Origin: a virus | Lineage: Duplodnaviria > Heunggongvirae > Uroviricota > Caudoviricetes | Virus record (IMG/VR): IMGVR_UViG_2645728048_000034 | Span: 1-62,864 of that record | Length of the DNA: 62,864 bases | Direction: 5' to 3' (one strand) | In this document: positions 17,326 through 61,814 of the stretch, in pieces | How the letters are laid out: each line of letters begins with the position of its first letter | How positions within the stretch are numbered: the stretch's first letter is position 1 | The notes under the pieces: generated by a model | The model's database searches: none | What the model saw: only the letters and a program-made list of their open reading frames with translations | What the model was told of the DNA's origin: nothing | Position numbers and translations under genes: made by a program

Positions 17326-17387
17326 TCCTCACGCGCCAGCAAAATCTGGCGTCGGGATTAGGAACCCCGGATAGAGACCGCGACAGA

Positions 17388-17412: not shown

Positions 17413-17573
17413 TGTCGTATGCACGCGCACATCTGAATTATGGTGGGGCGTATGGGGGAGCTGAAAAGCTCGCCGGTTGGTTTCCCGGTAGTTCCTAACC
17501 CTGTACGTCTCACCACCCGATGATTAGGAACCTGACGGTGGTGATGGTTTAGAAACCACCAGAGGGCGTCATT

Positions 17574-20229: not shown

Positions 20230-20979
20230 ATGGCAAAACCGGACTGGGAGGCCATCGAATCGGCATACCGGGCCGGAGTCCTTAGCCTCCGTGATATAGG
20301 CGAGAAATACGGCGTTACAGAAGGGGCTATCAGGAAGAGGGCCAAAAAGCTTGGTTGGGTACGCAGTGGCGGTACGCAGGTTTGCAAAAATGGTACGCAA
20401 AAAAGAAAAGTGCGTACCAGCAGAAAGCCTGCCATTACTGGCCTTACACAAAAAGGTACGCAACTAAAAACAGAACCTACACTGGATACGAAACCGATAC
20501 GCGGAATGCGTACCGATCCCCCGACTAACCCATTCCAACCCGGTAACCAGCAGGCATTAAAACACGGTGGTTATGCCCGTCGCCTTCTGCTCAAAGATGA
20601 GGTGATAGAGGACGCTAAAGCGTTGACGCTCGAGGACGAATTATTTCGCCTTCGTGCTAACAACCTTGTCGCTGCAGAGAATATTGGTCGGTGGCTGGTG
20701 TCGCTGGAAGATGCTAGTGGGGACCAGGAAAGGAAGATGCTGATGGAAAATATCAGCGCCGCCGAGAAAGCAATGATGCGCAATACAGTTCGTATTGAGT
20801 CCATCGTTGGCACGCTTGCGACGGTAGGAAAGATATTTGCTGATACAGCCTACCGCAAGGCCGCCACTGATAAGGTGTCTCTGGAGGCTGATCGTCTTCG
20901 CCGTGATGCAGGTATTGATGATGGCAATGGAGAGCGTGACCTCAATGACTTCTACTCTGACATCCAAACCGACGCTTAA
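20230..20979 (+). CDS. Terminase small subunit
   Basis: N-terminal HTH (LSLRDIGEKYGVTEGAIRKRAKKLGW); precedes TerL. Confidence 0.7.
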   Translation: MAKPDWEAIESAYRAGVLSLRDIGEKYGVTEGAIRKRAKKLGWVRSGGTQVCKNGTQKRKVRTSRKPAITGLTQKGTQLKTEPTLDTKPIRGMRTDPPTNPFQPGNQQALKHGGYARRLLLKDEVIEDAKALTLEDELFRLRANNLVAAENIGRWLVSLEDASGDQERKMLMENISAAEKAMMRNTVRIESIVGTLATVGKIFADTAYRKAATDKVSLEADRLRRDAGIDDGNGERDLNDFYSDIQTDA

Positions 20980-36963: not shown

Positions 36964-37316
36964 TGCGATACAGACGTGAAGACGCCGATGGCGATTACAC
37001 CTTTGGCAGCGGTGATGACACCTGGCTGATTAACTCACCGGAGGCCGTGGCGCAGGCGGTAAAAACGCGATTCGAATTGTGGTATGGGCAATGGTTTCTC
37101 GACACCACCGAAGGGACTCCGTGGATCCAGTCCGTGCTCGGAAAGCAGAAGCCGGAAACCTACAACCTGGCGATCCGTAAGCGCATCCTCGAAACGCGGG
37201 GCGTTAAATCAATCCTCTCTTTCAATACGACAGTGGATACCACGACCCGACGTGTCATGTTTTCCGCTGAAATCGACACTCTTTATGGAATAACGACTGT
37301 TACATCGGAGGCGTAA
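36963..37316 (+). CDS. Baseplate protein W/gp25-like
   Basis: 117 aa; ATGA overlap with previous gene. Confidence 0.55.
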   Translation: MRYRREDADGDYTFGSGDDTWLINSPEAVAQAVKTRFELWYGQWFLDTTEGTPWIQSVLGKQKPETYNLAIRKRILETRGVKSILSFNTTVDTTTRRVMFSAEIDTLYGITTVTSEA

Positions 37317-38515
37317 TGGCTCTGAACCTTGATTCTCTCGGTTTATCTGCAAAGGTAACCGCGGAGGGGATCAGTGCGCCTGATTATCAGACGATACTCA
37401 GCACCCTGATTAGCTATTTTCAGCAGATTTATGGCAGTGATGCCTACCTCGAACCGGACAGCAAAGACGGCCAGATGGTGGCTCTGATGGCGCTGGCGAT
37501 TCATGATGCCAATAATATGGCGATAACTGTCTACAACTGTTTTTCACCGGCAACCGGCTATGGGGCTGCACTGACCAGTAACGTGAAAATAAATGGTATT
37601 TCACGTAAAGGCGCGACGAACTCTACGGTTGATTTGCTTCTTGCAGGAACTGCCGGAACAACCATCATTAATGGCAGCGTGAAAGACAGTAATAATGTGA
37701 TATGGCGTTTGCCTGCTTCAGTAGTGGTCGGCGTGGATGGTACAGTGATGGCGACCGCAACATGTTCCGTCAGTGGTGCAGTGGCGGCGCTGGCTGGAAC
37801 TATCACTGAAATTAATACGCCAACCCGTGGCTGGGTTTCGGTAACTAATCCTGCTGCGGCTACTGTGGGCACTCCGGCAGAAACTGACGCGGAGTTACGT
37901 ATCCGTCAGTCGCAAAGTGTTGCGTTGCCATCAATAACCCCATTTGAAGCACTGGATGGTGCTGTTTCTAATGTTACCGGTGTAACCCGCCACAAACTCT
38001 ATGAAAACGATACTGGTTCGGAGGACGGTAACGGGTTACCGCCACACTCTGTTGCTGTAATTGTGGATGGCGGTGATGTGACGGATATTGCTCAGGCTAT
38101 CAGAGGGAATAAAGGCCAGGGGACAGCCACTCACGGTACAACATCCGTTACGGTTCCGGATAAATACGGCAATCCCCATGTAATCAAATTCTCGCGTTCC
38201 AGTGATGTGCCTGTTTATGCCCGGATTAAATTAAAAGTTTTTACGGGTTATACCTCACAGATAGGGCAGCAGATCCAGCAGGCTATTTCCGACTATATCA
38301 ATAGTCTGATGATTGGTGATTCGGTCCTTTTAAGTCGCATTTACTCACCGGCGAATCTTGGCGTGGTGAGTGGCGGGAATGCACGCTATTACGATATTCA
38401 GGAACTGACGATTGGGAAATCCCCGGGGGCTTTGTCGTCATCAAACATTGATATCAGATACAACGAATCTGCGTCCTGTACCCCGGAAAATATCGTTATA
38501 ACGGTGGAGTCATGA
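37316..38515 (+). CDS. Baseplate J-like protein
   Basis: 399 aa; position and size. Confidence 0.65.
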   Translation: MALNLDSLGLSAKVTAEGISAPDYQTILSTLISYFQQIYGSDAYLEPDSKDGQMVALMALAIHDANNMAITVYNCFSPATGYGAALTSNVKINGISRKGATNSTVDLLLAGTAGTTIINGSVKDSNNVIWRLPASVVVGVDGTVMATATCSVSGAVAALAGTITEINTPTRGWVSVTNPAAATVGTPAETDAELRIRQSQSVALPSITPFEALDGAVSNVTGVTRHKLYENDTGSEDGNGLPPHSVAVIVDGGDVTDIAQAIRGNKGQGTATHGTTSVTVPDKYGNPHVIKFSRSSDVPVYARIKLKVFTGYTSQIGQQIQQAISDYINSLMIGDSVLLSRIYSPANLGVVSGGNARYYDIQELTIGKSPGALSSSNIDIRYNESASCTPENIVITVES

Positions 38516-39192
38516 GCAAATACACCGAACTAATCACGAACTACCACGCCACTAAACCTAAATTTCTTGCGCATGTTGATCTGATGACCCGGCCGCTTAT
38601 TGATGTTGCGGCTGCCACCAGAGGGCTGATTACTGCATTTGATATTGACTCTGCGGTTGGTGTGCAACTTGACATTCTGGGATTGTGGATCGGACGTAGC
38701 CGTGTTGTCAGCCAGCCTATCTCAGGTGTCTATTTCAGCTGGGATACCGACGGGCTTGGATATGATCAGGGGGTATGGCAGGGACCATACGATCCTGATT
38801 CCGGATACATGTACCTCAGCGATGAAACTTATCGTGTCATTCTTAAAGCGAAGATTGCGATTAATAACTGGGATGGACGGAATGATTCTCTTCCGGCAAT
38901 TCTTGACGCTGCAACAGCAGGATCCGGGCTGCGAATGCAGATAGTCGATAACCAGGACATGACGATATCGGTCTGGGTCTTTCCTGATACTGATATTTCA
39001 GATGTATCGCGTGAGTTAATTGCGGCAATTAAACAGGGGTATCTCACAGTAAAAGCCGCCGGGGTATGGGCGGGTGGCATTGAAACACCTTCGGTGGAAA
39101 CCCCATCGGAAGGCTCAAAATTTTTTGGTTTTGATATGGATAACGAATTCATCAGTGGTTTTGATGTAGGAGCATGGGGAGTATTACTCTGA
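38512..39192 (+). CDS. Tail protein I-like (baseplate wedge)
   Basis: 226 aa following J-like. Confidence 0.5.
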
Positions 39193-40067
39193 TGGCGAAA
39201 AATGACTTTAAAGCGTTTGCAACGGATCGAAATGCCAATGTTATGTCGCAGGAGGAATGGGAAGCGTTGCCTGCGCTTTTATCCGGATTTACAGCAGGGA
39301 AAGCATCCAGTGCGCAGGTGAACAAAGCCATTCGACAGGCCAGCTTTATTGCTGCAGCTCTGGCCCAGTTTGTAAGTGACAAAACGCAACGGGATGTGCT
39401 TGATAATGGTGATCTGCCCGGTTTTGTTGAATTGCTTGGATCGGGGTTTGCTGTTGAATACCTGAGCCGCAAAAATCCGTTTGGCGATATCAAATCGGAC
39501 GGCACAGTGAAAACGGCTCTCGAAAACCTTGGTTTGGGAGAAGGCTCTGCATTACCGGTTGGGGTGCCTGTTCCGTGGCCTTCAGCCACTCCGCCAACAG
39601 GCTGGCTGAAATGCAATGGTGCGGCTTTTTCTGCTGAAGAATACCCGGAACTGGCAAAGGCTTACCCGACCAATAAATTGCCTGATTTACGCGGTGAATT
39701 TATTCGTGGCTGGGATGATGGACGTGGAGTGGATGCGGGGCGAGCCTTGCTAAGTCTTCAGGATGACTCTTTTGAAGCTCACAGGCATGAGTCCTTTTTT
39801 TACGCGGGTATTTCACGCAATGAAATACCATTAAAAAATCTTCCAAGTTCAGACGAGATGCTGACTTTAAGTTCTACAACTAATGCCTTGTCCCCGGACG
39901 GTATTGATGCCACTAATTCGTTAATTGGTAATGATGATTACAACTGTCTGATTGAAGGAAATAAAAATAACAAACGAACAGCGACGGGGTTGAGTACCAG
40001 TATTGTCGGTGCAGCAGAGACACGCCCACGTAATATTTCATTTAATTACATTGTGAGGGCTGCATGA
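39174..40067 (+). CDS. Tail fibre protein (tail-collar domain)
   Basis: 297 aa; collar-type motif [34 protein letters not shown]. Confidence 0.65.
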
Positions 40068-40669
40068 TGTATAATGCCATCTTGAATAGTAAATTTATTG
40101 CCACAAAGGCAGGAGAGATTACCGTTTATAACTATGACAGTGAGACACGGGAGTATATTTCTGCATCAACTGAATATCTTGCTGTGGGTGTCGGTATCCC
40201 TGCATATTCCTGTTTAGATGCTCCTGGCACACATAAGGCGGGTTATGCAATCTGCCGTTCGGCAGATTTAAACTCATGGGAATATGTGTCAGACCATCGC
40301 GGTGAAATCATCTATAGCACCGAAACAGGAGAATCGAAAGAAATCACAGCTCCGGGTGATTATCCTGAAAATACAACCACTATCGCCCCGTTAACGCCAT
40401 ACGATGAATGGGATGGTGAGAAATGGGTAACAGATACTGTGGCACAGCATAGCGCCGCAGTAGGCGCGGCAGAAGCACAGCGTCAGTCACTGATTGATAC
40501 TGCAATGGCTTCCATTAGTCTGATTCAGCTGAAATTGCAGGCCGGACGGAATCTGACGCAGGCAGAAACCGCCCGACTTAACGCTGCGCTGGATTACATT
40601 GACGCGGTGACGGCAACAGATACGAGCACCGCGCCGGATGTCATCTGGCCTGAACTGCCGGAGGCGTAG
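40064..40669 (+). CDS. Tail fibre assembly protein (Tfa)
   Basis: 201 aa; conserved Tfa C-terminus [24 protein letters not shown]. Confidence 0.65.
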
Positions 40670-41075
40670 GCCATTCAATATCTGGAGCACTGGAGGTATC
40701 AACCAGTTCCAGTGCGTCCAGATAATCCAGCCACAAATTATATTGCGCCAGTTCCTCACCTTTCAGACGACCAATAGCCGCTTTACCAGGCCATTGCTTG
40801 GTATTCATATATTCGTTGGACTGATTAATCAATTGCTGTTTTTTCAATTCGGCTGCGGCAATCTGTTCCTCATGCGTTGGTGGTGGAATTTCAGACCATG
40901 CAGGAAAACCATTTTCCCCAGCGATACGGATTTTTCCTTTCGGCGGTAATCCGGAAAACTCAATATACACCTGCTCATCAACTTCAACAGCATCATCTGG
41001 CCATGAATTTACATTGATGTAGTCATCCTTAAGCGCAGGATTCACAAAAATATTTAAAGATGGACTAAAAAACAC
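40641..41075 (-). CDS. G: P2 G-like tail fibre assembly protein
   Basis: Tfa C-terminus [21 protein letters not shown]; follows H; 3' end overlaps the + strand tfa by 29 nt. Confidence 0.7.
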   Translation of the reverse strand: MFFSPSLNIFVNPALKDDYINVNSWPDDAVEVDEQVYIEFSGLPPKGKIRIAGENGFPAWSEIPPPTHEEQIAAAELKKQQLINQSNEYMNTKQWPGKAAIGRLKGEELAQYNLWLDYLDALELVDTSSAPDIEWPTPPAVQAR

Positions 41076-41076
41076 A

Positions 41077-42252
41077 TCACCCTCCTATAGCAACATAACA
41101 GCCCGATACAGGATTTGCGGCAGTCACTACGCTGGAAAAACCACGAAAGCCGCTTTTTGTGATTGCGGAAGCAGATAGTATTCCGGCACCCGAAGGTGTA
41201 TGCCCCACGTGGCTGGCAACCATCACGTAGCACGCCGACGGAAAAGCGAAAGGGAAATTGTTTAAATATCCCGCATCATCCCCCAGACTTCCCCCAAACT
41301 GCCCCACTCCCCACTGGATAATAAGTGGTCTCCGAACGCCAGAAATAATTAATGGAATTGCTACATACCCATTCACCAACATAGCGCCGGTTGTTGCGCC
41401 AGCCAGAGCCAATTCCCCCAAACCAAGGTATGCGAGAAGACCGGCAACATCCTTTCCACTCAAATGAGTCAGCGTCTCATCCAGTGGCTGCTTACCTGAC
41501 AGCGCATTGTTAATGGTGGTGCTGAATTTCGGGTCATTGTTAATGGCCGCGGCAATTTCTTTCAGTGTGTCCAGTGTGGCTGGCGCACCGTTAATCAGAG
41601 CGGTAATAGCGGCCTGAACAAACGCAGTGGTCGCAATCCGCGTGGTGTTATTTCCTGCGGCAGGCGTCGGCGCTTTTGGTTCTCCGGTAAATGTCGGATT
41701 ATGTTTCTGCGCATACTGGGTATGAGGATCCTGTGCGGCAATGTGGTTCCTCATCTGGTCATCCACATACAGCTTTAATTCCAGGACTTCATCATCCACG
41801 TATTTACGGGTCGCCAGTACCACCGACGGGTCGATTTTCAGCGTGATGGCTTCGGTATTCGTGACAACCAGAATCATGCGGATAGTCTGGGTACGACCAC
41901 TGCCTTCCTGCAACTGCGGTTTGTACGTTTCCGGGCAGTTCGCCACCGCAATGAGTACGCCTTCATCATCATAAAGCCCAATCTCACGGATCCAGAATCC
42001 GCCCTCGTTCTCAGGGATGATTTGCTCCGCAATAATCTGGCTCTGGTTGTTCGGGTCAACACTCAGAAGATTCAGCGGCGCGATGCGTTTCTGGTTAATC
42101 AGTTTTGTCTGTGCCGGGTCTGGGGTCGGCAAGACACCATTCGCATCACCAACGGCCATTTGCGTCAGATTCAGCTTACTGCCGAGCATCGTCGCGTTAG
42201 CCAGCCGTGCTGCGCCCTGATTAGTCAGAATGGCGTAGTATTTCACTGTCAT
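41077..42252 (-). CDS. H: P2 H-like tail fibre protein
   Basis: Conserved N-terminus MTVKYYAILTNQGAARLANA...MAVGDANG; shorter than P2 H. Confidence 0.7.
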   Translation of the reverse strand: MTVKYYAILTNQGAARLANATMLGSKLNLTQMAVGDANGVLPTPDPAQTKLINQKRIAPLNLLSVDPNNQSQIIAEQIIPENEGGFWIREIGLYDDEGVLIAVANCPETYKPQLQEGSGRTQTIRMILVVTNTEAITLKIDPSVVLATRKYVDDEVLELKLYVDDQMRNHIAAQDPHTQYAQKHNPTFTGEPKAPTPAAGNNTTRIATTAFVQAAITALINGAPATLDTLKEIAAAINNDPKFSTTINNALSGKQPLDETLTHLSGKDVAGLLAYLGLGELALAGATTGAMLVNGYVAIPLIISGVRRPLIIQWGVGQFGGSLGDDAGYLNNFPFAFPSACYVMVASHVGHTPSGAGILSASAITKSGFRGFSSVVTAANPVSGCYVAIGG

Positions 42253-51012: not shown

Positions 51013-51185
51013 TGTCAGGAGTCCTGAATAGTGATTAGAGGAGTCACATGTCGGCATCAGTTTCCCGACGATGCGCATCCTCCGCCATCAGTCCCGGATG
51101 GCTTATCACTGACACAACAGCACCTTAGCGAATCGCGGGGTGCGACTCAGTAGCCTTGCCGTGTATTCATCACGGCGAGGTATTC

Positions 51186-52958
51186 ATGACCATCACCACA
51201 GACACCACTCTTTTACACGACCCGCGTCGTCAGGCGGCGCTGCTGTACTGGCAGGGATTTTCCGTGCCGCAGATTGCCGCCATGTTGCAGATGAAACGCC
51301 CGACGGTGCAGAGCTGGAAACAGCGCGACGGCTGGGACAGCGTTGCCCCCATCAGCCGTGTCGAAATGAGTCTGGAAGCGCGGCTGACCCAGCTCATCAT
51401 CAAACCGCAGAAAACCGGCGGTGATTTCAAGGAAATTGACCTGCTGGGACGCCAGATTGAACGACTGGCACGGGTCAACCGCTACAGCCAGACCGGCAAC
51501 GAGGCAGACCTTAATCCGAACGTCGCTAACCGCAACAAAGGCGGGCGCCGCAAACCGAAAAAGAATTTTTTCAGTGACGAGGCCATCGAAAAGCTGGAGC
51601 AGATTTTCTTTGAGCAGTCTTTCGACTATCAGTTGCACTGGTATCGCGCCGGGCTTGAGCACCGCATCCGCGATATCCTGAAATCCCGCCAGATTGGCGC
51701 GACATTTTATTTTTCCCGCGAGGCGCTGCTGCGCGCCCTGAAAACCGGCCATAACCAGATTTTTCTGTCGGCCAGTAAAACGCAGGCGTATGTGTTCCGC
51801 GAATACATCATCGCCTTTGCCCGTCTGGTTGACGTTGACCTGACCGGTGACCCGATTGTCCTGGGCAATAACGGCGCAAAACTGATTTTTCTCGGCACCA
51901 ACTCCAACACCGCGCAGAGCCATAACGGCGACCTGTACGTCGACGAGATTTTCTGGATCCCGAATTTTCAGGTACTGCGTAAGGTGGCATCAGGTATGGC
52001 CTCACAGAGTCACCTGCGCTCGACCTATTTCTCCACCCCATCCACGCTGGCGCACGACGCCTACCCGTTCTGGTCGGGTGAACTGTTCAACCGGGGACGC
52101 GCCAGCGCCGCCGAACGCGTGGAAATCGACGTCAGTCATAACGCCCTTGCCGGTGGTCTTCTCTGTGCGGACGGCCAGTGGCGGCAGATTGTCACCATTG
52201 AGGACGCACTGAAAGGCGGCTGCACGCTGTTCGACATTGAGCAGCTCAAACGCGAAAACAGCGCCGACGATTTTAAAAACCTGTTCATGTGTGAATTTGT
52301 TGACGACAAGGCGTCGGTATTCCCGTTCGAGGAGCTGCAACGCTGCATGGTCGACACGCTGGAAGAATGGGAAGACTATGCGCCGTTTGCCGCCAATCCG
52401 TTCGGCTCCCGCCCGGTATGGATTGGTTACGACCCGTCACACCGTGGCGACAGCGCCGGATGCGTGGTGCTGGCACCGCCGGTGGTGGCCGGTGGCAAAT
52501 TCAGAATACTTGAGCGTCACCAGTGGAAAGGCATGGACTTTGCCACCCAGGCGGAATCCATCCGCAAACTCACCGAAAAATATAACGTCGAATACATCGG
52601 TATTGATGCCACCGGCCTCGGTGTCGGCGTGTTCCAGCTCGTGCGCTCGTTCTATCCCGCCGCGCGCGATATCCGCTACACGCCGGAAATGAAAACCGCA
52701 ATGGTGCTCAAGGCAAAAGACGTTATTCGCCGTGGCTGTCTGGAATATGACGTCAGCGCCACCGACATCACCAGCTCGTTTATGGCTATCCGCAAGACCA
52801 TGACCAGCAGCGGACGCAGCGCCACCTATGAGGCCAGCCGCAGCGAGGAAGCCAGCCACGCCGACCTCGCCTGGGCGACCATGCACGCCCTGTTAAATGA
52901 GCCACTCACCGCGGGTATCAGCACTCCGCTGACATCCACCATTCTGGAGTTTTACTGA
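51186..52958 (+). CDS. P: P2 P-like terminase large subunit
   Basis: 590 aa from MTITTDTTLL; divergent from O. Confidence 0.85.
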   Translation: MTITTDTTLLHDPRRQAALLYWQGFSVPQIAAMLQMKRPTVQSWKQRDGWDSVAPISRVEMSLEARLTQLIIKPQKTGGDFKEIDLLGRQIERLARVNRYSQTGNEADLNPNVANRNKGGRRKPKKNFFSDEAIEKLEQIFFEQSFDYQLHWYRAGLEHRIRDILKSRQIGATFYFSREALLRALKTGHNQIFLSASKTQAYVFREYIIAFARLVDVDLTGDPIVLGNNGAKLIFLGTNSNTAQSHNGDLYVDEIFWIPNFQVLRKVASGMASQSHLRSTYFSTPSTLAHDAYPFWSGELFNRGRASAAERVEIDVSHNALAGGLLCADGQWRQIVTIEDALKGGCTLFDIEQLKRENSADDFKNLFMCEFVDDKASVFPFEELQRCMVDTLEEWEDYAPFAANPFGSRPVWIGYDPSHRGDSAGCVVLAPPVVAGGKFRILERHQWKGMDFATQAESIRKLTEKYNVEYIGIDATGLGVGVFQLVRSFYPAARDIRYTPEMKTAMVLKAKDVIRRGCLEYDVSATDITSSFMAIRKTMTSSGRSATYEASRSEEASHADLAWATMHALLNEPLTAGISTPLTSTILEFY

Positions 52959-53992
52959 TGAGCAAGAAAAAAGGGAAAACACCGCAACCTGCGGCAAAAA
53001 AAATGACCGCCAGCACCCCGAAAATGGAGGCATTCACCTTTGGCGAGCCGGTGCCGGTACTCGACCGCCGTGACATTCTGGATTACGTCGAATGCATCAG
53101 TAACGGCAGATGGTATGAGCCACCGGTCAGCTTTACCGGTCTGGCAAAAAGCCTGCGTGCTGCCGTGCATCACAGCTCACCGATTTACGTCAAACGCAAT
53201 ATTCTGGCGTCGACATTTATCCCGCATCCGTGGCTTTCCCAGCAGGATTTCAGCCGCTTTGTGCTGGATTTTCTGGTGTTCGGTAATGCGTTTCTGGAAA
53301 AGCGTTACAGCACCACCGGTAAAGTTATCAGGCTGGAAACCTCACCGGCAAAATATACCCGCCGTGGTGTGGAAGAGGATGTTTACTGGTGGGTGCCGTC
53401 CTTCAACGAGCCGACAGCCTTCGCGCCCGGCTCCGTGTTTCACCTGCTGGAGCCGGATATTAATCAGGAGCTGTACGGCCTGCCGGAATATCTCAGCGCC
53501 CTTAACTCTGCCTGGCTGAATGAGTCGGCCACGCTGTTCCGCCGCAAGTATTACGAAAATGGCGCACATGCCGGATACATCATGTACGTCACTGATGCCG
53601 TGCAGGATCGCAACGATATCGAAATGCTTCGCGAAAACATGGTCAAGTCGAAAGGCCGCAACAACTTTAAAAATCTGTTTCTCTATGCCCCGCAGGGGAA
53701 AGCCGACGGCATTAAAATTATCCCGCTCAGTGAAGTGGCAACGAAGGACGATTTTTTTAATATCAAAAAAGCCAGCGCCGCTGACCTGCTGGACGCGCAC
53801 CGCATCCCCTTTCAGTTGATGGGCGGCAAGCCGGAGAACGTCGGGTCGCTGGGTGATATTGAGAAAGTGGCAAAGGTCTTTGTCCGCAATGAACTTATCC
53901 CGTTACAGGACAGGATTCGGGAAATAAACGGCTGGCTCGGCCAGGAGGTCATCCGCTTTAAAAACTACTCACTGGACACTGACAACGGCTGA
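52958..53992 (+). CDS. Q: P2 Q-like portal protein
   Basis: 344 aa, same as P2 Q; ATGA overlap with P. Confidence 0.85.
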   Translation: MSKKKGKTPQPAAKKMTASTPKMEAFTFGEPVPVLDRRDILDYVECISNGRWYEPPVSFTGLAKSLRAAVHHSSPIYVKRNILASTFIPHPWLSQQDFSRFVLDFLVFGNAFLEKRYSTTGKVIRLETSPAKYTRRGVEEDVYWWVPSFNEPTAFAPGSVFHLLEPDINQELYGLPEYLSALNSAWLNESATLFRRKYYENGAHAGYIMYVTDAVQDRNDIEMLRENMVKSKGRNNFKNLFLYAPQGKADGIKIIPLSEVATKDDFFNIKKASAADLLDAHRIPFQLMGGKPENVGSLGDIEKVAKVFVRNELIPLQDRIREINGWLGQEVIRFKNYSLDTDNG

Positions 53993-53996
53993 ACAT

Positions 53997-54020
53997 CGCC
54001 GCCTGCGGGCGGCTTTTTTA
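53997..54020 (+). terminator. Rho-independent terminator after Q
   Basis: gccgcc-tgc-gggcggc followed by tttttt. Confidence 0.6.
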
Positions 54021-54161: not shown

Positions 54162-54180
54162 GTGCTTTCCCCGCCTCGCC
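54162..54180 (-). other. P2-type cos cohesive-end sequence
   Basis: + strand gtgctttccccgcctcgcc is the reverse complement of the P2 19-nt cos sequence as recalled. Confidence 0.6.
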
Positions 54181-54363
54181 CGCCCGCTTCATGGGGCGGT
54201 TTTAATGCAACCTCGTATTAAAGGGGACACCATAGCCCATCAAACCTCAGACTTCGCCCCTAGCTAACGTTTATGAATGCAATGTAATGCAACTTAATGC
54301 AAGTTATGGTAATGATAATTCTGCGTTAACAATTAAACTAATGTACCTGTAAGAGGATAAAAA

Positions 54364-56847
54364 ATGTCTGGTTTTTTCCTTGATTTAACCAAGCTTTCGC
54401 CCAGTGTAAATAGCGACACAGCGATTCCACCGCGAGATATATTTACAGCTCTACCGAGCAAAGACACCAAATTTCAATACCCTCGAGATGTGCAATCAGA
54501 GGTCTGGGAAAAATGGTATGAAGCAAGGAGAAGCCCAACCAATGTAATAAAAATGAATACCGGAAGCGGTAAAACTTCAGTTGGGTTAATCATTCTTAAA
54601 AGCTGTATAAATGAAGGAGAAGGTCCCGCTGTATATGTTGTTCCTGACAACTATCTAGTTGAGCAAGTGGTTTTGGAGGCTAATCAACTTGGTATACCTG
54701 TAACTCAGGATGAGAGGTCCCCCAAATTTATTGCAGGTAAAGAAATTTTAGTTACAAATATATTCAAAGTGGTTAATGGACGTTCTGCATTTGGCGTTGG
54801 AGATGATGGACAAAAAATACCAATAGGCTCTATAATAATTGACGATGCTCACGCTTGCCTTTCTTCAATTGAAGAACAATTCTCCATTAGCATTCAAAAA
54901 AATAACCCTGCCTATGATAAATTATTCAGAATTTTTGAAAATTCACTAATGACACAAGCTGGTGCAAAAACACTAGAGATAAAATCCGGCGATAGAAATG
55001 CTTATGTGAGAGTTCCATTTTGGAAATGGCAAGAAAGCATAAATGATATAATGACAATCTTGTTAGAAAATAAAGACCATGATGACTTGAGTTTCAAATG
55101 GCCATTAATAAAAGACAATCTAATATTATCGAAATGCGTTGTAAGTGCTTCCAAAATAGAGATATCACCTCATTGCATACCAATCCAAATGATCCCAAGC
55201 CTATCAAACGCAAGAAGAAAAATATTCATGACAGCTACTCTTGTCGATGAATCCATTCTAGCGAGCCACTTCGGAATAACGGATGAATCACTCTCTAATC
55301 CGATAACACCAAAAACAATTGGTGATATTGGTGATAGAATGATACTAATGCCTCAGGTTATAAACCCTAGTCTTTCTGATGTAGATATCAAAGCTATGTG
55401 CAAGGAGATATCCTCCAAACATAATGTTGTTGTAATTGTACCATCCGATTACAGAACTAGATTTTGGCAAGATGTTGCAGACAGAATATTAGATAAAAAT
55501 ACAATTTATCAAGGTGTACAAGAATTAAGGACACAACATGTTGGCTTAGTAGTCCTAGTTAATAGATATGATGGTATTGATTTACCAAATACCGCATGTC
55601 GTCTATTAGTAATAGATGGACTTCCTGACGTTCGTAGACTAATAGATAAAGTCTCACAAAGCTTATTGCTTGGAAGCGAAAAAACCAAAGATGAAATTAT
55701 CCAGAAAATTGAACAAGGAATGGGGCGAGGAGTGAGATCAAGCGACGACTTCTGCGGAGTGATCTTACTTGGCAAAGCATTAAATGGCGCTGTTTTCCTT
55801 GGCTCCTCCTTAGAAAGGTTTTCTCCAGCAACGAAAGCACAAATTCAACTTTCACAGCAATTGGTATCGATACTGCCGGATACAACTATTGATTCAATCA
55901 AAGGTGCTCTTGATTATTGTCTGTTACGCAATTCTGACTGGGTCTCAAAAAGCAAAGGTATATTGACTGGCTTAACATTGGAAAATAAGCAGATTGACCA
56001 GCATACTATAAACAAAAGATTGGCATATGACTTAGCATCACGAAATATGTTTCAACAAGCCGCTTTAACTCTAAAAAATGATAGTAGCACAGCTGACAAA
56101 GTTTATAAGGGTTATCTAAAAGAACATGCTGCGGAATATGTAAACTTATATGACAAATCTGAAGCTCAGATATTGCTTCAGTCTGCATCAAACGATAACT
56201 ATCGGGTATTAAAACCACTAATCGGCGTAACATATAATAGACTTAATGGTGCGGCACTTGAACAGGCTAGGGAATGTAGCTCCTATCTCAGAAGTAATTT
56301 TGAATCGGCGAATCAAGTCGTTGTGCATACTAATTCAATAATAGAAAACCTTATTTTCTCCGAGGGCACATCGAATCCCTTCGAAGATGCTATCGAAAAA
56401 GTTGCATATTTGGTCGGTTTTCGTAGCCAACGGCCAGAAAATGATACAGGTAAAGGACCTGACAATTTATGGGCAATGGGAGAAAACAATTATCTAGTAA
56501 TTGAATGCAAAAATGGAGCAACCGCAGAAAGAATAAGTAAGCATGACTGCAATCAGTTAAATGGGTCGGGTGCATGGTTCAGAAACATGTATGATCAAAC
56601 TGCTACCGCCACACCTATAATGATACATCACTCTAACATGCCTGAATATGCCGCAACACTAAACGAAGGGTCTCGAATAATGACCATAAATGATCTTGAA
56701 CGTTTTAAAGCATCTATCCTCAGTTTTATCACGGCCATTTGTACAAGTGATAAACGACACGATGAGATATTTATAAGAGAACAATTGATTACATGTAAAT
56801 TACGTGCATCAGACATAGTTGAAACCTATACGCGAAATCCTCGTTAA
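54364..56847 (+). CDS. SF2 (DExH-like) helicase fused to C-terminal PD-(D/E)xK-like nuclease domain; candidate anti-phage gene
   Basis: 827 aa; Walker A GSGKT (aa 67-71), motif II DDAH (160-163), FMTATL, QGMGRGVR; C-terminal GPD(699-700)...VIECK(714-716); AT-rich; between A and cos. Confidence 0.7.
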   Translation: MSGFFLDLTKLSPSVNSDTAIPPRDIFTALPSKDTKFQYPRDVQSEVWEKWYEARRSPTNVIKMNTGSGKTSVGLIILKSCINEGEGPAVYVVPDNYLVEQVVLEANQLGIPVTQDERSPKFIAGKEILVTNIFKVVNGRSAFGVGDDGQKIPIGSIIIDDAHACLSSIEEQFSISIQKNNPAYDKLFRIFENSLMTQAGAKTLEIKSGDRNAYVRVPFWKWQESINDIMTILLENKDHDDLSFKWPLIKDNLILSKCVVSASKIEISPHCIPIQMIPSLSNARRKIFMTATLVDESILASHFGITDESLSNPITPKTIGDIGDRMILMPQVINPSLSDVDIKAMCKEISSKHNVVVIVPSDYRTRFWQDVADRILDKNTIYQGVQELRTQHVGLVVLVNRYDGIDLPNTACRLLVIDGLPDVRRLIDKVSQSLLLGSEKTKDEIIQKIEQGMGRGVRSSDDFCGVILLGKALNGAVFLGSSLERFSPATKAQIQLSQQLVSILPDTTIDSIKGALDYCLLRNSDWVSKSKGILTGLTLENKQIDQHTINKRLAYDLASRNMFQQAALTLKNDSSTADKVYKGYLKEHAAEYVNLYDKSEAQILLQSASNDNYRVLKPLIGVTYNRLNGAALEQARECSSYLRSNFESANQVVVHTNSIIENLIFSEGTSNPFEDAIEKVAYLVGFRSQRPENDTGKGPDNLWAMGENNYLVIECKNGATAERISKHDCNQLNGSGAWFRNMYDQTATATPIMIHHSNMPEYAATLNEGSRIMTINDLERFKASILSFITAICTSDKRHDEIFIREQLITCKLRASDIVETYTRNPR

Positions 56848-56856
56848 ACAGTAAAA

Positions 56857-56885
56857 GACCACCTCCTAAGGAGGTGGTCCTTGTA
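56857..56885 (+). terminator. Stem-loop terminator after helicase-nuclease gene
   Basis: Perfect 10-bp stem gaccacctcc-taa-ggaggtggtc. Confidence 0.5.
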
Positions 56886-57087
56886 TGATAAAAAGAACCA
56901 GTTTTTATTGTTAATAATACAATTCTCGAATTTCAACATAGACTTATTGTACCACCAGTAAAATCATCAATATTAATATATAGAAAAAAAAGAAATGTCG
57001 ATTATTTGTACGTAGCGTAATCATATTAACATATACAGATAAACAGCAACCTTACCATTATGCAACCAATCTAAAACATTATATTTA

Positions 57088-59367
57088 TTACTCTGAATAA
57101 CCAGAAAACCCACTCCACTCATCTACACCAGGATATGAAAATTGCTTTTCATTGTAATTGACGATCGCACCGCGTACTAACGCCTCAAGCTCCCATCGCT
57201 GCGGCCTGATACCGTTTTGAGCAAGGTCAACGCGGATACGGGTGATTTGCATTCGTTCCGACCTGGTCAGTCTGGCCGATGGTGCAATTTCATGTGGTTT
57301 TAACGGGCTTCCGTTTCTTTGCTGACGACTTGGCGTTCTCCGACCGTGTTTTAATGCACCCCTGAGCGCCCTCACCACCTCCGGGTCATTCCATTCGATA
57401 ACACCGTCATCAACCAGATTAAGCACTGCTGCGGCATGCTCAGAAGGTGTGGGAGCCGGTAACGAAGTATCACCACCGGTGAGCTTTCCACAGTTATTGA
57501 CAGGACTCCGAGGCGCGGCGATGCCGCTTTTTAAAGTCAAAGGCTCAACGACCGGAACTTTCGGCACAATGCGCCAGTCCGTCGTTCTGGTGATATGAAT
57601 ATGACGCGCGCCGAGATGCGGCGCGTAAATGCCGACCACCCTCTCGACCTCTTCCTCGTACTCGTTAACGTCATCCGACGGGCTACGGGCGACCCTGACA
57701 GTCTGACAATCGCGCGGGACATTTGCCCCACCCTGCGCGCTGATATACAACGCAAAATCACCACTGTCTGCGGCGGCGCGTGCAGCCTCGACGCGCTCGT
57801 CAAACTCATCAGCAATGCTGACGCCGCGCGGCAATTTGCGTAGTTCACGGTAAGCCCCCATTGTCGGCAGACCAACCGTTTTAAATTGCGGGATGCGCCA
57901 CGTTGACGCCCATGCGGTAACAGCCGCAGCAGTGTCTTTCAGCGGCCTGCCGGTATCGTTATCGAGCTGACCATCCAGTGCATAGCCGTCGATGTTTTTT
58001 GAGATGTATTTCGCGATATACCCCGCAGCACCGCCCCGGTTAAGGTGTTTTGCCTGAAAACGGTTTCGCGCGGCTCCTCTTTCGTCGCCATCCTCTTTGA
58101 GCGCATAGCGACGCATGATTTCGATAATCTGGTTACGCTGGCGCGGATTACAAAAAAGCATCATATGCCAGTGCGGCGTTCCGTCGTGGTGTGGCTCGAC
58201 GACACGCAAACCGTAGACCTGTAAATCATTATCCTTGAATGCCGTGCGCATCAGGCTCCAGATACGGCAGAGATAACGCTGCGCATCCTTTGGATTAAAT
58301 GCCTCATCGTTCCAGCCGTGATTTAGCTGGACGGTTTTACTTTCGCCTTTTCTGACCTGACGTGTCGGGTGATACTTTGACGGCGCGGTCAGCGTGATAA
58401 ACATCCCCACATCACCCTCTGCTGCGGCGTAACGCTCAATACCGGCAATGGTGTTCATCAGCTCCATCCGGCGAATTTCAGGATTAGAAATACTGCCCAT
58501 CACCTTACTGATAAGGTCGATGCGCTCGCCGGTTTCCCTGTTTTCGAGATCACACGATTTAAGAAATTCCAGATTTGCCTGGCGGCGTGCACGCACATCA
58601 CGAATGGCATGTTTACTGGCATAAGGAGAACGGTCTTTATTGACCTCCCCGACAGCAATCAGTAACGCCTCATGCCAGCGCATACGCTGGCCTTTAAGCT
58701 GATGGGTCCACCACTCATCGTTAAACAGACGGGCAACGGCAGAATATGCCTGCCTCGTGGTCATCTGCCCTTTACGGTATTTTTTCCAGTAGAGAGGGGA
58801 AATATTGAAAGCACGTGCAGCACCAGCAACATGACCATAGAGGTGAGCCTGCGCCTCATCCGTAAACAGCGATTCTTTTTCGCCATGCGCATCCACCCAG
58901 GCATCGCAGAGTTCCTCATACATCATGAAAAGCTGCGATGAGATACGGGCGGCAAACTTTTTCAGCTCCTTGTCATTCATCCCCGGCAGACGCGCATAAT
59001 GGTCACGCTCTGCCAGAAACAGCAACGACGCGTCGGTGTTCATTTCATGGCGCTGATTCACACGCTCAATGCGCGGCCATAAACGACGCTGAAAAGTGGA
59101 TGTGAGAAAATAAAACCCGTGCACCGGGCTTTTATTGCGCCGGATGTAGTCATAGCGTGAAGTAAACAGCGAGCGCAAAAAGTAAGGCAGGCGGTTAATC
59201 GTGGATAAAACACCTTGCACCTGACGCATCTCGTCACGTGTAAGGGGTCTTTCGCGCCCGACAGCCTCGCGTGGCGCGTTCCATGCATAAGCACCGGTAA
59301 ACGCCTTACCGGTGCCTGCGGCAAATGCTGACGGAGGGACAAAACGCCCGGAGGCTTTAACGGCCAT
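57088..59367 (-). CDS. A: P2 A-like replication initiation endonuclease (rolling-circle Rep)
   Basis: HUH motif EPHHDGTPHWHMMLF; about 760 aa from MAVKASGRF. Confidence 0.85.
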   Translation of the reverse strand: MAVKASGRFVPPSAFAAGTGKAFTGAYAWNAPREAVGRERPLTRDEMRQVQGVLSTINRLPYFLRSLFTSRYDYIRRNKSPVHGFYFLTSTFQRRLWPRIERVNQRHEMNTDASLLFLAERDHYARLPGMNDKELKKFAARISSQLFMMYEELCDAWVDAHGEKESLFTDEAQAHLYGHVAGAARAFNISPLYWKKYRKGQMTTRQAYSAVARLFNDEWWTHQLKGQRMRWHEALLIAVGEVNKDRSPYASKHAIRDVRARRQANLEFLKSCDLENRETGERIDLISKVMGSISNPEIRRMELMNTIAGIERYAAAEGDVGMFITLTAPSKYHPTRQVRKGESKTVQLNHGWNDEAFNPKDAQRYLCRIWSLMRTAFKDNDLQVYGLRVVEPHHDGTPHWHMMLFCNPRQRNQIIEIMRRYALKEDGDERGAARNRFQAKHLNRGGAAGYIAKYISKNIDGYALDGQLDNDTGRPLKDTAAAVTAWASTWRIPQFKTVGLPTMGAYRELRKLPRGVSIADEFDERVEAARAAADSGDFALYISAQGGANVPRDCQTVRVARSPSDDVNEYEEEVERVVGIYAPHLGARHIHITRTTDWRIVPKVPVVEPLTLKSGIAAPRSPVNNCGKLTGGDTSLPAPTPSEHAAAVLNLVDDGVIEWNDPEVVRALRGALKHGRRTPSRQQRNGSPLKPHEIAPSARLTRSERMQITRIRVDLAQNGIRPQRWELEALVRGAIVNYNEKQFSYPGVDEWSGFSGYSE

Positions 59368-59632
59368 ATGAGCCAAAAGCCTCTGAACAACGCTTGCTGA
59401 GTTGCTCAACCTGCACGTTTAAATCAGCAAAAGACTTTGCGCTTCCGGTCAGAATATCGTGATGCATCAGGCCGGAAACGAGCTGGCTTAATTTCGGGTA
59501 ATAACCAACCACCGACAGCCATTCCTGACCGGCGTTTTTACCGCTTTCCGCTCTCTTTTTCTCGTGGAGAATAAACTGAAAGCTGTCACTGGTAACGACA
59601 TAACGTTCGCCAATTTCAATACGAATACTCAT
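59357..59632 (-). CDS. Hypothetical P2 early-region protein
   Basis: 91-aa ORF upstream of A. Confidence 0.45.
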   Translation of the reverse strand: MSIRIEIGERYVVTSDSFQFILHEKKRAESGKNAGQEWLSVVGYYPKLSQLVSGLMHHDILTGSAKSFADLNVQVEQLSKRCSEAFGSYGR

Positions 59633-59853
59633 GCCGTTCTCCGGTAATGTTTGTTTTTTGCTTCAAAGACTGACTGACAGGAAACACAACGCGTGGCTGA
59701 CGGATAAGCCGCACGACGGGCAGCAGGTATTGGCGCGTCACACTCTTCGCAAACCAGCGCAGAAGCACCGCAATGTTTTACCCTTGCCGCGTTAATCTGG
59801 CGCTCCAGTAATTCAGTCTGTTGTTCCTGAATAAAATCTACGTTGTCCGGCAT
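59629..59853 (-). CDS. DksA/TraR-family C4 zinc-finger protein
   Basis: CEECDAPIP...CVSCQ four-Cys motif. Confidence 0.6.
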   Translation of the reverse strand: MPDNVDFIQEQQTELLERQINAARVKHCGASALVCEECDAPIPAARRAAYPSATRCVSCQSVFEAKNKHYRRTA

Positions 59854-61137: not shown

Positions 61138-61385
61138 GCATCACGCTGTTCAACCGGTCGGTTATAAAACGCCTCACGTACAGCGCGATTAAACTCTGGA
61201 ATGAAAACCCATTTCTCACCGGCGCGGGCCTTCGGCTTATTTGGATCTCGAAGCTCGATAACCGGTAGCTTGTTAGCCTTTATCATTTCTGTAACTGCGG
61301 TTTTTGGTTTACCCAATAAATCTGCAAACTTTTCCGCATGTACCGCATCAAGCGGGTACTTAATCACATAATCATTAACTTCCAT
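61113..61385 (-). CDS. cox: P2 Cox-like excisionase/regulator
   Basis: 90 aa; divergent from C repressor. Confidence 0.65.
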   Translation of the reverse strand: MEVNDYVIKYPLDAVHAEKFADLLGKPKTAVTEMIKANKLPVIELRDPNKPKARAGEKWVFIPEFNRAVREAFYNRPVEQRDAWLLWMGL

Positions 61386-61520
61386 CTATGTTACCCTCAT
61401 AGGATCCAGCCCCTTAAAAACCGCTTGGAACCGTTTAAGCGGCGCTGGACTCACGCCCGAAAAGGTTCTGGATTAATGACCTTTTCGGGGAATATAGTCA
61501 TTAAGTCAGGACTATGTCAA

Positions 61521-61814
61521 ATGAATATCGCACAGAAATTAAGAGCAATAAGACAATCGGAAGGGCTAACTCAAGCAAAATTCAGTGAAATCAGCGGCAT
61601 AGCGTTAGGAACGCTAAAGAATTACGAAGGAGGCCATCAAGACCCTGGCATCCAAGTTGTGTTGCAGGTCACCAATGCACCTCAGTTCCAAAAATACACA
61701 CTATGGCTCATGACAGATAAAACAGCGCCGGAAGCGGGACAAATCGCACCGGCTCTCGCGCACAGTGGGCCAGAGTCAACAGAATCCAACCACTCCGCGA
61801 AAAGGATTGGCTAA
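61521..61814 (+). CDS. C: P2 C-like immunity repressor
   Basis: 97 aa from MNIAQKLRAIRQSEGLTQ...; C-terminal ...QFQKYTLWLMTDKTAPEAGQIAPALAH matches P2 C as recalled. Confidence 0.7.
   Translation: MNIAQKLRAIRQSEGLTQAKFSEISGIALGTLKNYEGGHQDPGIQVVLQVTNAPQFQKYTLWLMTDKTAPEAGQIAPALAHSGPESTESNHSAKRIG

What the first reader, a model, noticed from the sequence alone, without database searches (positions are those of the whole stretch)
54364..56847. Solitary helicase-nuclease fusion gene in the P2 old/tin hotspot
An 827-aa AT-rich ORF lies between the P2-like A gene and the cos site, the position where P2 carries old and tin and where P2-like phages swap anti-phage cargo. It has SF2 helicase motifs (GSGKT at nt 54562-54576, DDAH at 54841-54852, FMTATL, QGMGRGVR) and a C-terminal PD-(D/E)xK-like pattern (PD at aa 699-700, ECK at 714-716). 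That architecture resembles a Type III restriction Res subunit, but no Mod methyltransferase is nearby, so how self would be spared is unclear. Upstream there are four to five copies of AATGCAA (about 54205-54305); downstream a perfect 10-bp hairpin. I cannot match it to a named system from sequence alone.
Basis: partly seen in the sequence, partly recalled or inferred. Interest (0 to 1): 0.85.

Follow-up and report, generated by a model that had tools for sequence, protein, structure and literature searches.

The report
Hna anti-phage gene in P2 prophage
The solitary helicase-nuclease gene is real, but it is a member of Hna, an already characterised single-protein anti-phage system that kills the infected cell, carried here as swappable cargo in a P2-like prophage.

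Summary
The claim that it matches no named system is wrong. It is an Hna-family protein (helicase-nuclease abortive infection; PADLOC candidate PDC-S28).

Evidence:
- It matches the cryo-EM structures of S. meliloti Hna at E = 5.8e-121 (32% identity, full length).
- An AlphaFold model superposes on the Hna monomer at TM 0.87.
- The founder Hna and this protein hit the same PADLOC model at ~1020-1055 bits.
- All tested Hna catalytic residues are invariant (R36/Q39 = R41/Q44; P712/D713/E727/K729 = P699/D700/E714/K716).

It is not a Type III Res orphan. The helicase core is XPD/DinG-like without an Fe-S cluster, and self-sparing needs no methylase. Published Hna is an ATP-locked, autoinhibited dimer whose 3'-5' ssDNA exonuclease is released by a phage SSB.

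The exact protein (WP_021570163) is already listed as 'ResIII/DEAD' cargo in Rousset 2022's P2-hotspot table. It occurs in 70 of 5,426 complete E. coli genomes.

Residual open points are a clade-specific regulatory loop and a conserved, phased AATGCAA x3 array upstream. Novelty and interest are low.

The parts
54364..56847 (+). hna-like gene: 827-aa single-protein defence system (Hna family / PADLOC PDC-S28; RefSeq WP_021570163.1, annotated only as 'DEAD/DEAH box helicase family protein')
54460..54483 (+). N-terminal loop KDTKFQYP (aa 33-40). It is the equivalent of the Hna HEL1 dimerisation/autoinhibition loop (T30/D31/P34), but its sequence is clade-specific. Residues 31-37 have pLDDT below 50 in the model.
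54484..54495 (+). Q-motif-like R41..Q44, equivalent to the Hna ATP-coordinating R36/Q39; invariant in alignment A1
54481..55803 (+). XPD/DinG-like SF2 ATPase core (HEL1+HEL2, aa ~40-480). Contains Walker A GSGKT (54562-54576), DDAH (54841-54852) and motif VI QGMGRGVR (55714-55737). Only one Cys lies between Walker A and DDAH, so there is no Fe-S cluster.
56422..56625 (+). PD-(D/E)xK nuclease core (aa 687-754), with P699/D700 (56458-56463) and E714-C-K716 (56503-56511). These equal the tested Hna residues P712/D713/E727/K729.
54267..54316 (+). Conserved non-coding island holding three AATGCAA copies at 10-bp phasing (54276-54302), 62-88 nt upstream of the ATG. Candidate promoter/operator of hna in P2-like phages; the binding factor is unknown.
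54351..54357 (+). Shine-Dalgarno-like AAGAGGA, 6 nt before the ATG
   Evidence: read directly from the sequence
56854..56882 (.). 13-14 bp hairpin 7 nt after the stop codon; terminator/insulator between hna and the convergent gene A. The structure is conserved, with different stem sequences, in the 90% and 82% homologs.
54210..57025 (.). Extent of the cargo module. Homology to other peduovirus backbones stops at 54209 and resumes at 57026-57155.
54162..54180 (.). P2-type cos cohesive-end sequence (context). It is flanked by terminator-like hairpins at 53998-54013 and 54180-54199 that insulate hna from the late P-Q operon.
   Evidence: the cos sequence itself is from my own knowledge of P2
57088..59409 (-). 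P2-type replication endonuclease gene A (context; right border of the hotspot)
52958..53992 (+). P2-type portal gene Q (context; left border of the hotspot)

Best explanation
The ORF encodes an Hna-family protein (helicase-nuclease abortive infection). Hna is a one-gene anti-phage system, and here a P2-like prophage carries it in its cos-proximal cargo hotspot, probably expressing it from its own upstream region during lysogeny.

By homology with S. meliloti Hna, the protein most likely sits in uninfected cells as an ATP-bound, autoinhibited homodimer. Its XPD/DinG-like SF2 core binds and hydrolyses ATP but does not unwind DNA. [quoted passage not shown] That frees the C-terminal PD-(D/E)xK domain to act as a Mg-dependent 3'-5' ssDNA exonuclease. 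Uncontrolled ssDNA degradation then stops replication and kills or arrests the infected cell before progeny are released. Self is not 'spared'; it is protected by autoinhibition until a trigger appears.

Shown here: family membership, fold, conservation of all catalytic residues, solitary gene organisation, and hotspot location.

Inferred by homology: exonuclease polarity, ATP-dimer autoinhibition, the SSB trigger and the abortive-infection outcome.
For: - phmmer against PDB: 10UJ/9YKJ/9YHN, E = 5.8e-121, aligned 60-792 to 62-806. These entries are the Hna monomer and dimer.
- BLASTP: 32% identity over 751 columns, E = 7e-131.
- AF2 model (pLDDT 82.5, pTM 0.83) against 9YHN 'Hna Monomer': TM 0.87/0.88, E = 1.4e-58. 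The next hits, XPD, CasDinG and DinG, reach only TM 0.3-0.5.
- PADLOC PDC-S28 model PDLC04986: 1055 bits for this protein and 1020 bits for founder Hna P0121.
- In alignment A1 these are invariant: R41, Q44, G67/G69/K70/T71, D160-H163, Q451-R455, R458, P699, D700, E714, C715, K716. They map onto the mutated Hna residues R36/Q39 and P712/D713/E727/K729.
- The Pfam signature ResIII + Helicase_C_2 at ~840 aa matches the published Hna description.
- The gene is solitary here and on unrelated islands in Pectobacterium, Pseudomonas and Providencia, which fits the reported extensive horizontal transfer.
- The hotspot carries other defence cargo in related phages: DUF4209, Fic, retron Ec48.
- A cited statement says phage SSB activates the Hna proteins of both S. 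meliloti and E. coli.
- Mechanism.
Against: - Identity to the biochemically studied Hna is only 32%.
- The dimer-interface residues T30/D31/P34 are not conserved. The loop reads KFQYP-RDVQ here against DKGPL-RPAQ in the founder clade, with a 1-aa indel, and this holds across the commonest loop variants listed for both clades. Autoinhibition and trigger recognition may therefore differ.
- No phenotype data for this allele were available to me. I could not retrieve Sather 2023 to see whether the E. coli homolog it tested is this protein.
- No sigma-70 promoter was called upstream of the ORF, so expression in the lysogen is inferred.
Confidence: 0.75

Rival explanations
1. It is an orphan Type III restriction Res-like enzyme: an ATP-dependent translocase/endonuclease that cuts foreign dsDNA and works without a cognate Mod methyltransferase.
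For: The Pfam ResIII hit at the N-terminus (E = 8.9e-10). A C-terminal PD-(D/E)xK motif, as in Res subunits. Type III restriction enzymes do occur in this hotspot.
Against: - No Mod gene or any partner ORF is present.
- The ResIII match covers only the generic Walker A/B lobe. The second lobe is Helicase_C_2, the XPD/DinG type.
- No Res subunit is among the 50 matches listed by Foldseek, whereas Hna scores TM 0.87.
- NCBIfam gave no hit above a curated cut-off, and none to a restriction Res model.
- The homologous Hna shows no dsDNA cleavage and no unwinding.
Confidence: 0.03
2. It is an Hna-fold protein that is regulated or triggered differently from the founder. The clade-specific N-terminal loop would recognise a different phage factor, or would not mediate an ATP-locked dimer. 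The conserved upstream AATGCAA array would tie expression to a phage or host regulator.
For: - The loop is strongly conserved within each clade but differs between them: K[FY][QE]YPRDVQ against DKGPLRP[AS]Q.
- That loop is both the dimer interface and the predicted SSB-competition site in Hna.
- The island 54267-54316 is 80-85% invariant while its flanks are 15-50% invariant among P2-borne homologs of 82-100% protein identity.
- An Hna system in E. coli NILS08 is reported as temperature-regulated.
Against: - R/Q, Walker A/B, motif VI and the nuclease triad are all invariant, and the overall fold is the same.
- A cited statement says phage SSB activates the E. coli Hna too.
- Even inside the founder clade T30 is variable (H is commonest), so exact loop identity may not matter.
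Confidence: 0.2
3. It is a DinG/XPD-type helicase-nuclease that serves the prophage's own DNA replication, repair or packaging, and is not a defence gene.
For: Fold similarity to XPD, DinG and CasDinG. It sits next to the replication gene A and cos.
Against: - The gene is absent from most P2-like phages, which carry unrelated cargo at the same site. It is absent from all 50,697 phage records at the DNA level.
- It also occurs on unrelated non-phage islands.
- Low GC marks it as foreign to the backbone.
- The founder is experimentally a defence protein.
Confidence: 0.02

Closest known systems
Hna (helicase-nuclease abortive infection) of Sinorhizobium meliloti pSymA; Sather et al. 2023; structures PDB 10UJ, 9YKJ, 9YHN (Hooper et al. 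2026)
   Same: - A single ~830-845-aa protein with an N-terminal XPD/DinG-like SF2 ATPase lacking Fe-S and a C-terminal PD-(D/E)xK nuclease.
- Full-length homology (E = 5.8e-121) and TM 0.87.
- All mutated catalytic residues are conserved.
- The gene is solitary and horizontally mobile.
   Different: - 32% identity, in a separate clade of 827-834 aa against 839-845 aa.
- The N-terminal dimer/SSB-interface loop has a different, clade-specific sequence and a 1-aa indel.
- It is carried in a P2-like prophage hotspot rather than on a symbiotic megaplasmid.
- Its upstream region has a phased AATGCAA array, and there is no indication of NolR-type control.
PADLOC phage-defence candidate PDC-S28 (models PDLC04986/PDLC04987)
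   Same: A full-length hit at E = 0 (1055 bits, profile positions 2-826 of 831). The founder Hna hits the same model at 1020 bits, so PDC-S28 and Hna are one family.
   Different: PDC-S28 is only a computational candidate name with no description attached. The one paper I found that mentions PDC-S28 I did not read.
'ResIII/DEAD' single-gene arrangement in the P2 gpQ-gpA hotspot (Rousset et al. 2022, Table S5A)
   Same: The same protein accession, WP_021570163, at the same locus.
   Different: Rousset et al. only catalogued it. It was not among the eight P2-hotspot systems they cloned, and it received no name.
DinG / XPD / CasDinG (type IV CRISPR) and ExoDinG helicases
   Same: The same SF2 subfamily fold for HEL1/HEL2 (Foldseek E ~1e-9; PADLOC typeIV_DinG 2.6e-12). 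The Hna structure paper itself likens Hna to ExoDinG 3'-5' exonucleases.
   Different: TM is only 0.3-0.5. There is no Fe-S cluster (one Cys between Walker A and DDAH), and the nuclease is a C-terminal PD-(D/E)xK domain.
P2 Old and Tin (the cargo of reference phage P2 at this locus)
   Same: The same genomic slot and the same biological role: a prophage-encoded exclusion or abortive-infection gene carried in this cargo slot.
   Different: No sequence or fold relationship appeared in any search.
Type III restriction Res subunit
   Same: A generic SF2 Walker A/B lobe (Pfam ResIII) followed somewhere by a PD-(D/E)xK nuclease.
   Different: No Mod partner, a different helicase subfamily, and no structural match among the 50 matches listed.

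Membership tests
Hna (helicase-nuclease abortive infection) | Significant full-length sequence homology to the founder S. meliloti Hna | tested here: met
   phmmer E = 5.8e-121, aligned 60-792 to 62-806; BLASTP 32% identity, E = 7e-131
Hna (helicase-nuclease abortive infection) | Same three-domain fold (HEL1, HEL2, NUC) as the solved Hna structure | tested here: met
   AF2 model (pLDDT 82.5) against 9YHN: TM 0.87/0.88 over 833 columns, E = 1.4e-58
Hna (helicase-nuclease abortive infection) | SF2 ATP-binding residues: Walker A Lys, DExH box, motif VI, and R36/Q39 | tested here: met
   K70, D160-H163, Q451-R455/R458, R41 and Q44 are invariant in 22 sequences from both clades
Hna (helicase-nuclease abortive infection) | C-terminal PD-(D/E)xK catalytic residues P712/D713/E727/K729 | tested here: met
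   P699/D700/E714/K716 are invariant. The GPDxLW..ECK motif is present in 114/118 and 120/120 homologs. The model has strand-helix-strand-strand-helix-strand elements at aa 687-754.
Hna (helicase-nuclease abortive infection) | XPD/DinG-like core without the Fe-S cluster | tested here: met
   Only Cys81 lies between Walker A and DDAH. XPD/DinG are the next-best folds.
Hna (helicase-nuclease abortive infection) | Single-gene system with no obligatory partner | tested here: met
   No other credible ORF in 54210-57025. The neighbours differ in Pectobacterium, Pseudomonas and Providencia.
Hna (helicase-nuclease abortive infection) | Conserved HEL1 dimerisation loop residues T30/D31/P34 | tested here: not met
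   They align to D34/T35/Q38. The loop is KFQYP-RDVQ here against DKGPL-RPAQ in the founder clade. This is a regulatory feature of the founder rather than a family-defining one, but it limits transfer of the mechanism.
Hna (helicase-nuclease abortive infection) | Anti-phage, abortive-infection phenotype triggered by a phage SSB | not testable with these tools
   Only second-hand: a cited statement that SSB activates the S. meliloti and E. coli Hna proteins. The primary paper was not retrievable.
Hna (helicase-nuclease abortive infection) | ATP-inhibited 3'-5' ssDNA exonuclease activity | not testable with these tools
   Shown biochemically for the founder only
PADLOC PDC-S28 | Full-length match to the family HMM | tested here: met
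   PDLC04986: E = 0, 1055.5 bits, protein residues 6-825 against profile 2-826 of 831
Type III restriction-modification (Res subunit) | Adjacent Mod methyltransferase forming the Res-Mod complex | tested here: not met
   No methyltransferase ORF between portal Q and gene A. RefSeq annotates only this gene there.
Type III restriction-modification (Res subunit) | Res-type helicase fold or sequence family | tested here: not met
   Only the generic N-terminal ResIII lobe matches. No NCBIfam model passes its cut-off. No Res structure is among the 50 matches listed by Foldseek.
P2-like phage cos-proximal defence hotspot cargo (Rousset 2022) | Variable insert between gpQ/cos and gpA, with conserved flanks and alternative cargo in related phages | tested here: met
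   Breakpoints at 54209 and 57026-57155. DUF4209, Fic/VbhT, DUF3850 and retron Ec48 sit at the same site in other peduoviruses.

The most novel reading that the evidence does not exclude
The E. coli/P2-borne clade of Hna, with its different but equally conserved N-terminal regulatory loop, is switched on by a different phage cue, or held off by a different mechanism, than the ATP-dimer/T7-like-SSB switch described for S. meliloti Hna. In addition, the conserved phased AATGCAA x3 array is an operator that couples hna expression to a still-unknown phage or host DNA-binding protein.
Probability: 0.25. Interest if true: 0.4.

Novelty: already known. Interest (0 to 1): 0.15.

Why it matters
It matters mainly as a correction. 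A gene that RefSeq calls only 'DEAD/DEAH box helicase family protein', and that looks like an orphan restriction subunit, is a known one-protein abortive-infection system. That removes the apparent self-toxicity paradox.

The analysis also makes three modest links:
- PADLOC's unnamed candidate PDC-S28 is the Hna family.
- Rousset's uncharacterised 'ResIII/DEAD' P2-hotspot cargo is the same protein.
- About 1.3% of complete E. coli genomes carry one near-clonal Hna allele. In every copy whose context I examined (the window, strain CH4804 and four database loci), it sits in the P2-like prophage hotspot.

The clade-specific sensor loop and the conserved upstream repeat array give two concrete handles for asking how trigger range and expression of Hna vary between clades.

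Tried and rejected
1. Type III Res orphan. Rejected: there is no Mod, the helicase subfamily is wrong, and no Res fold matches.
2. AATGCAA repeats as Cox or C boxes of this prophage. The motif is absent from the C/cox switch region 61380-61620 and does not cluster elsewhere, so there is no support.
3. A canonical sigma-70 promoter upstream of the ORF. None was called on the + strand between cos and the ATG, and promoter-like hits in the whole region are at chance level (11 against 10.8 expected).
4. A small partner, antitoxin or immunity ORF in the module. Only spurious 20-45-aa ORFs are present.
5. Do the AATGCAA array and hairpin travel with the gene outside P2? They are not present next to the Pectobacterium (80%) or P. 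aeruginosa (54%) homologs.
6. Which E. coli homolog did Sather 2023 test? The paper is not held, and secondary papers give no accession. Indirectly, only this allele is detectable in 5,426 complete E. coli genomes, and a founder-clade gene from Providencia finds nothing there. That blastn search would miss copies below ~65% DNA identity.
7. The gene in sequenced phage isolates. There is no DNA match in 50,697 records. tblastn found only a 30% hit, in a Salmonella contig deposited in that collection.
8. A literature link between the name Hna and the P2 hotspot. I found none.
Full report
**1.
The ORF listing gives an ATG-initiated ORF at 54364..56847 on the + strand, 827 aa. Its GC content is 37.4%, against 49.7% for the window and about 55% on both sides.
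- GSGKT, aa 67-71
- DDAH, aa 160-163
- FMTATL, aa 288-293
- QGMGRGVR, aa 451-458
- PD, aa 699-700
- ECK, aa 714-716

AATGCAA occurs four times upstream: 54204, 54276, 54286 and 54296. The last three are at exact 10-bp phasing, and none of 100 shuffles produced such an array. The hairpin after the stop codon is a perfect 10-bp stem that extends to 13-14 bp (56854-56882). It folds far better than shuffled sequence, with z about -5.

**2. The genomic setting is as described.**
The ORF lies in a P2-like prophage.
- Terminase P and portal Q lie at 51156-53992 on the + strand.
- The sequence I know as the P2 cohesive end lies at 54162-54180.
- Replication endonuclease A lies at 57088-59409 on the minus strand.
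- B, cox, C and int follow.

Rousset et al. 2022 describe this gpQ-cos-gpA interval as the old/tin locus and a hotspot with 1,650 gene arrangements.

Comparison with other peduoviruses puts the cargo breakpoints at 54209 and at 57026-57155. The same slot holds a DUF4209 protein, a Fic/VbhT protein, a DUF3850 protein or retron Ec48 in other phages.

Two terminator-like hairpins (53998-54013 and 54180-54199) separate the late P-Q operon from the ORF. The gene therefore needs its own promoter.

**3. What it is.**
- Pfam sees only generic domains: ResIII, DEAD and Helicase_C_2.
- No NCBIfam model passes its cut-off.
- PADLOC gives a full-length hit to the candidate family PDC-S28: model PDLC04986, E = 0, 1055 bits.
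- PHROGs gives phrog_16128, function unknown.

The decisive result is the PDB sequence search. Entries 10UJ, 9YKJ and 9YHN (845 aa) match at E = 5.8e-121, aligned 60-792 to 62-806. 10UJ and 9YKJ are the deposited monomer and dimer cryo-EM structures of S. meliloti Hna from Hooper et al., Nat Commun 2026, and the fold library titles 9YHN 'Hna Monomer'. BLASTP identity is 32% over 751 columns.

An AlphaFold2 model built on a 22-sequence alignment (pLDDT 82.5, pTM 0.83) superposes on the Hna monomer at TM 0.87/0.88 over the full length. The next-best folds, XPD, CasDinG and DinG, reach only TM 0.3-0.5.

The founder Hna, recovered from the database as P0121, hits the same PADLOC model at 1020 bits. 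PDC-S28 is therefore the Hna family under an earlier candidate name.

**4. Residue-level check.**
In a 22-sequence alignment spanning both clades, the invariant columns include:
- Walker A: G67, G69, K70, T71
- D160-D161-A162-H163
- Q451-G-M-G-R455 and R458
- R41 and Q44
- P699, D700, E714, C715 and K716

These map one-to-one onto residues mutated in S. meliloti Hna:
- R36/Q39 coordinate ATP, and mutating them gives a hyperactive nuclease.
- P712/D713/E727 coordinate the metal.
- K729 is the residue whose K729A change makes the enzyme nuclease-dead.

Only one cysteine lies between Walker A and DDAH. This fits the published statement that Hna lacks the Fe-S cluster of XPD/DinG.

**5. How it most likely works.**
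These steps are inferred from the founder.
- S. meliloti Hna is a Mg/Mn-dependent 3'-5' ssDNA exonuclease. It does not cut dsDNA or RNA and does not unwind DNA.
- ATP binding drives an autoinhibited homodimer through an unstructured HEL1 loop (T30/D31/P34).
- Disrupting ATP binding or the dimer raises nuclease activity 10-15-fold and is toxic.
[quoted passage not shown] SSB escape mutants fail to do so.
- In vivo, Hna is an abortive-infection system: infected cells die without releasing progeny.

A secondary source states that phage SSB activates the Hna proteins of both S. meliloti and E. coli.

No methylase is needed, because the enzyme is locked until a phage factor appears, and activation then sacrifices the cell.

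No SSB gene is annotated in the early region of the near-identical CH4804 prophage. From general knowledge, P2 replication uses the host SSB. This would explain why the prophage tolerates its own cargo, but that is an inference.

**6. Where it differs from the founder.**
The window protein belongs to a separate clade of 827-834 aa, with members in Enterobacterales, Pseudomonas, cyanobacteria and Legionella. It is about 30% identical to the founder clade of 839-845 aa.

The regulatory loop is the clearest difference. The 12 commonest loop variants listed for the window clade cover 74 of its 118 full-length homologs, and all read K[FY][QE]YPRDVQ. The 10 variants listed for the founder clade cover 117 of its 120 homologs, and all read DKGPLRP[AS]Q, with a 1-aa indel between the clades.

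T30/D31/P34 correspond to D34/T35/Q38 here. The segment is predicted to be disordered (pLDDT below 50 at residues 31-37), in line with the 'unstructured loop' of Hna. The catalytic machinery therefore transfers with confidence. The exact autoinhibition interface and trigger specificity transfer with less.

**7. Non-coding elements of the module.**
I compared the window with P2-hotspot homologs whose proteins are 98%, 90% and 82% identical (L012, L009, L010). All three sit right after a P2-type portal gene.
- The island 54267-54316, which holds the three phased AATGCAA copies, is 80-85% invariant. The flanking non-coding DNA is 15-50% invariant.
- The array is absent upstream of the Pectobacterium and Pseudomonas homologs on non-P2 islands.
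- It is also absent from the prophage's C/cox switch region.
- No canonical sigma-70 promoter was called there.

It looks like a selected regulatory site with an unknown binding factor.

The fourth copy (54202-54210) sits on the backbone/cargo breakpoint, in the tail of a backbone hairpin.

The post-stop hairpin is conserved as a structure with entirely different stem sequences in the 90% and 82% homologs. It scores as terminator-like for transcripts arriving from gene A. It is therefore an insulator between the two convergent genes.

**8. Prior knowledge and novelty.**
- The gene is present in 70 of 5,426 complete E. coli genomes. It is always chromosomal and always at least 99% identical, and it is annotated only as 'DEAD/DEAH box helicase family protein'.
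- The protein on the 100%-identical copy is WP_021570163.1.
- That accession appears as a single-gene 'ResIII/DEAD' arrangement in Rousset 2022's table of P2-hotspot contents. It was not among the systems they cloned.
- No founder-clade hna was detectable by blastn in E. coli genomes.
- No sequenced phage isolate carries the gene.
- I could not obtain Sather 2023. Whether the E. coli homolog tested there is this allele remains open. It is plausible, given that this is the only allele I could find in E. coli.
- I found no paper that names Hna as P2-hotspot cargo.

Overall this is a known system in a known hotspot, and standard defence-annotation tools would label it. I rate it 'already known', with low interest. 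The clade-specific loop and the conserved upstream array are the only open threads.

**9. Rivals.**
- An orphan Type III Res enzyme is rejected. There is no Mod, the helicase subfamily is wrong, and no Res fold matches.
- A housekeeping helicase for the phage is rejected, because the gene is variably present, has foreign composition and also occurs on non-phage islands.
- The only live alternative is a refinement: the same fold and chemistry, but a different trigger or regulation in this clade (probability about 0.2-0.25).

Noticed in passing
window 39524-39535 (junction); context 37316-42252: The window joins two different prophages. Collinearity with the intact P2-like prophage of E. coli CH4804 runs from 62864 back to 39524. 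It breaks inside TCTCGAAAACCTTGGTTTGGGAGAA, the only AAACCNNGGTTT site in the window, which looks like a Gin/Cin/Pin-type invertase crossover site. In CH4804 the next genes are an invertase, then sheath, tube, tape measure, D and ogr, and all of these are missing here. The tail-fibre ORF 39174-40067 spans the junction in frame. This suggests an invertase-mediated or homologous exchange between the tail-fibre segments of two prophages. That would mean a large chromosomal inversion and a split P2-like prophage that is probably no longer inducible but still carries hna.
   Followed up: partly
window 1-39523: The left-hand prophage is integrated beside the ryeA/ryeB (SraC/SdsR) sRNA locus (463-607). 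It carries an integrase at 735-1811, a RecE-like exonuclease VIII at 3399-6074, RalA antitoxin RNA (2169-2347), DicF (7087-7138), sok (14966-15115), isrK and C4 antisense RNA (17320-17520), a PBSX-type terminase (20837-22348) and Baseplate_J (37316-38515). Similar late regions occur in many E. coli genomes.
   Followed up: partly
window 54202-54210: A fourth copy of the repeat, TTAATGCAA, is identical to the copy at 54294-54302. It lies exactly on the backbone/cargo breakpoint (backbone homology ends at 54209), in the T-tail of the hairpin 54180-54199. It may be coincidence or a microhomology used when the cargo was acquired.
   Followed up: partly
L009:6548-7631 (homolog locus, 90% protein identity): In this P2-like element the hna homolog shares the hotspot with two more small genes on the opposite strand, one with a SocA_Panacea domain and one with a faint DUF2975 hit. 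The hotspot can therefore stack hna with a second cargo module.
   Followed up: no
L010:734-8556 (homolog locus, 82% protein identity): Here a P2-type portal gene and hna are followed directly by PhoH-like, Dyp-peroxidase and cupredoxin/peptidase_M75 genes instead of gene A. This looks like a decayed P2 remnant that has kept hna.
   Followed up: no
window 59629-59853 against L001:13266-14826: The TraR/DksA-type zinc-finger gene of the prophage is intact in the window. In strain CH4804, which has the 100%-identical hna, it is split by an IS3-family element. The window therefore comes from a different strain.
   Followed up: no
L015:6313-8529 (Providencia founder-clade hna locus); L008:1-511 (P. 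aeruginosa locus): Hna homologs outside P2 sit on integrase-bearing islands next to other defence-type genes: a type I HsdR-like gene in Providencia and a group II intron RT/HNH protein in P. aeruginosa. This is typical defence-island or mobile-element context.
   Followed up: no
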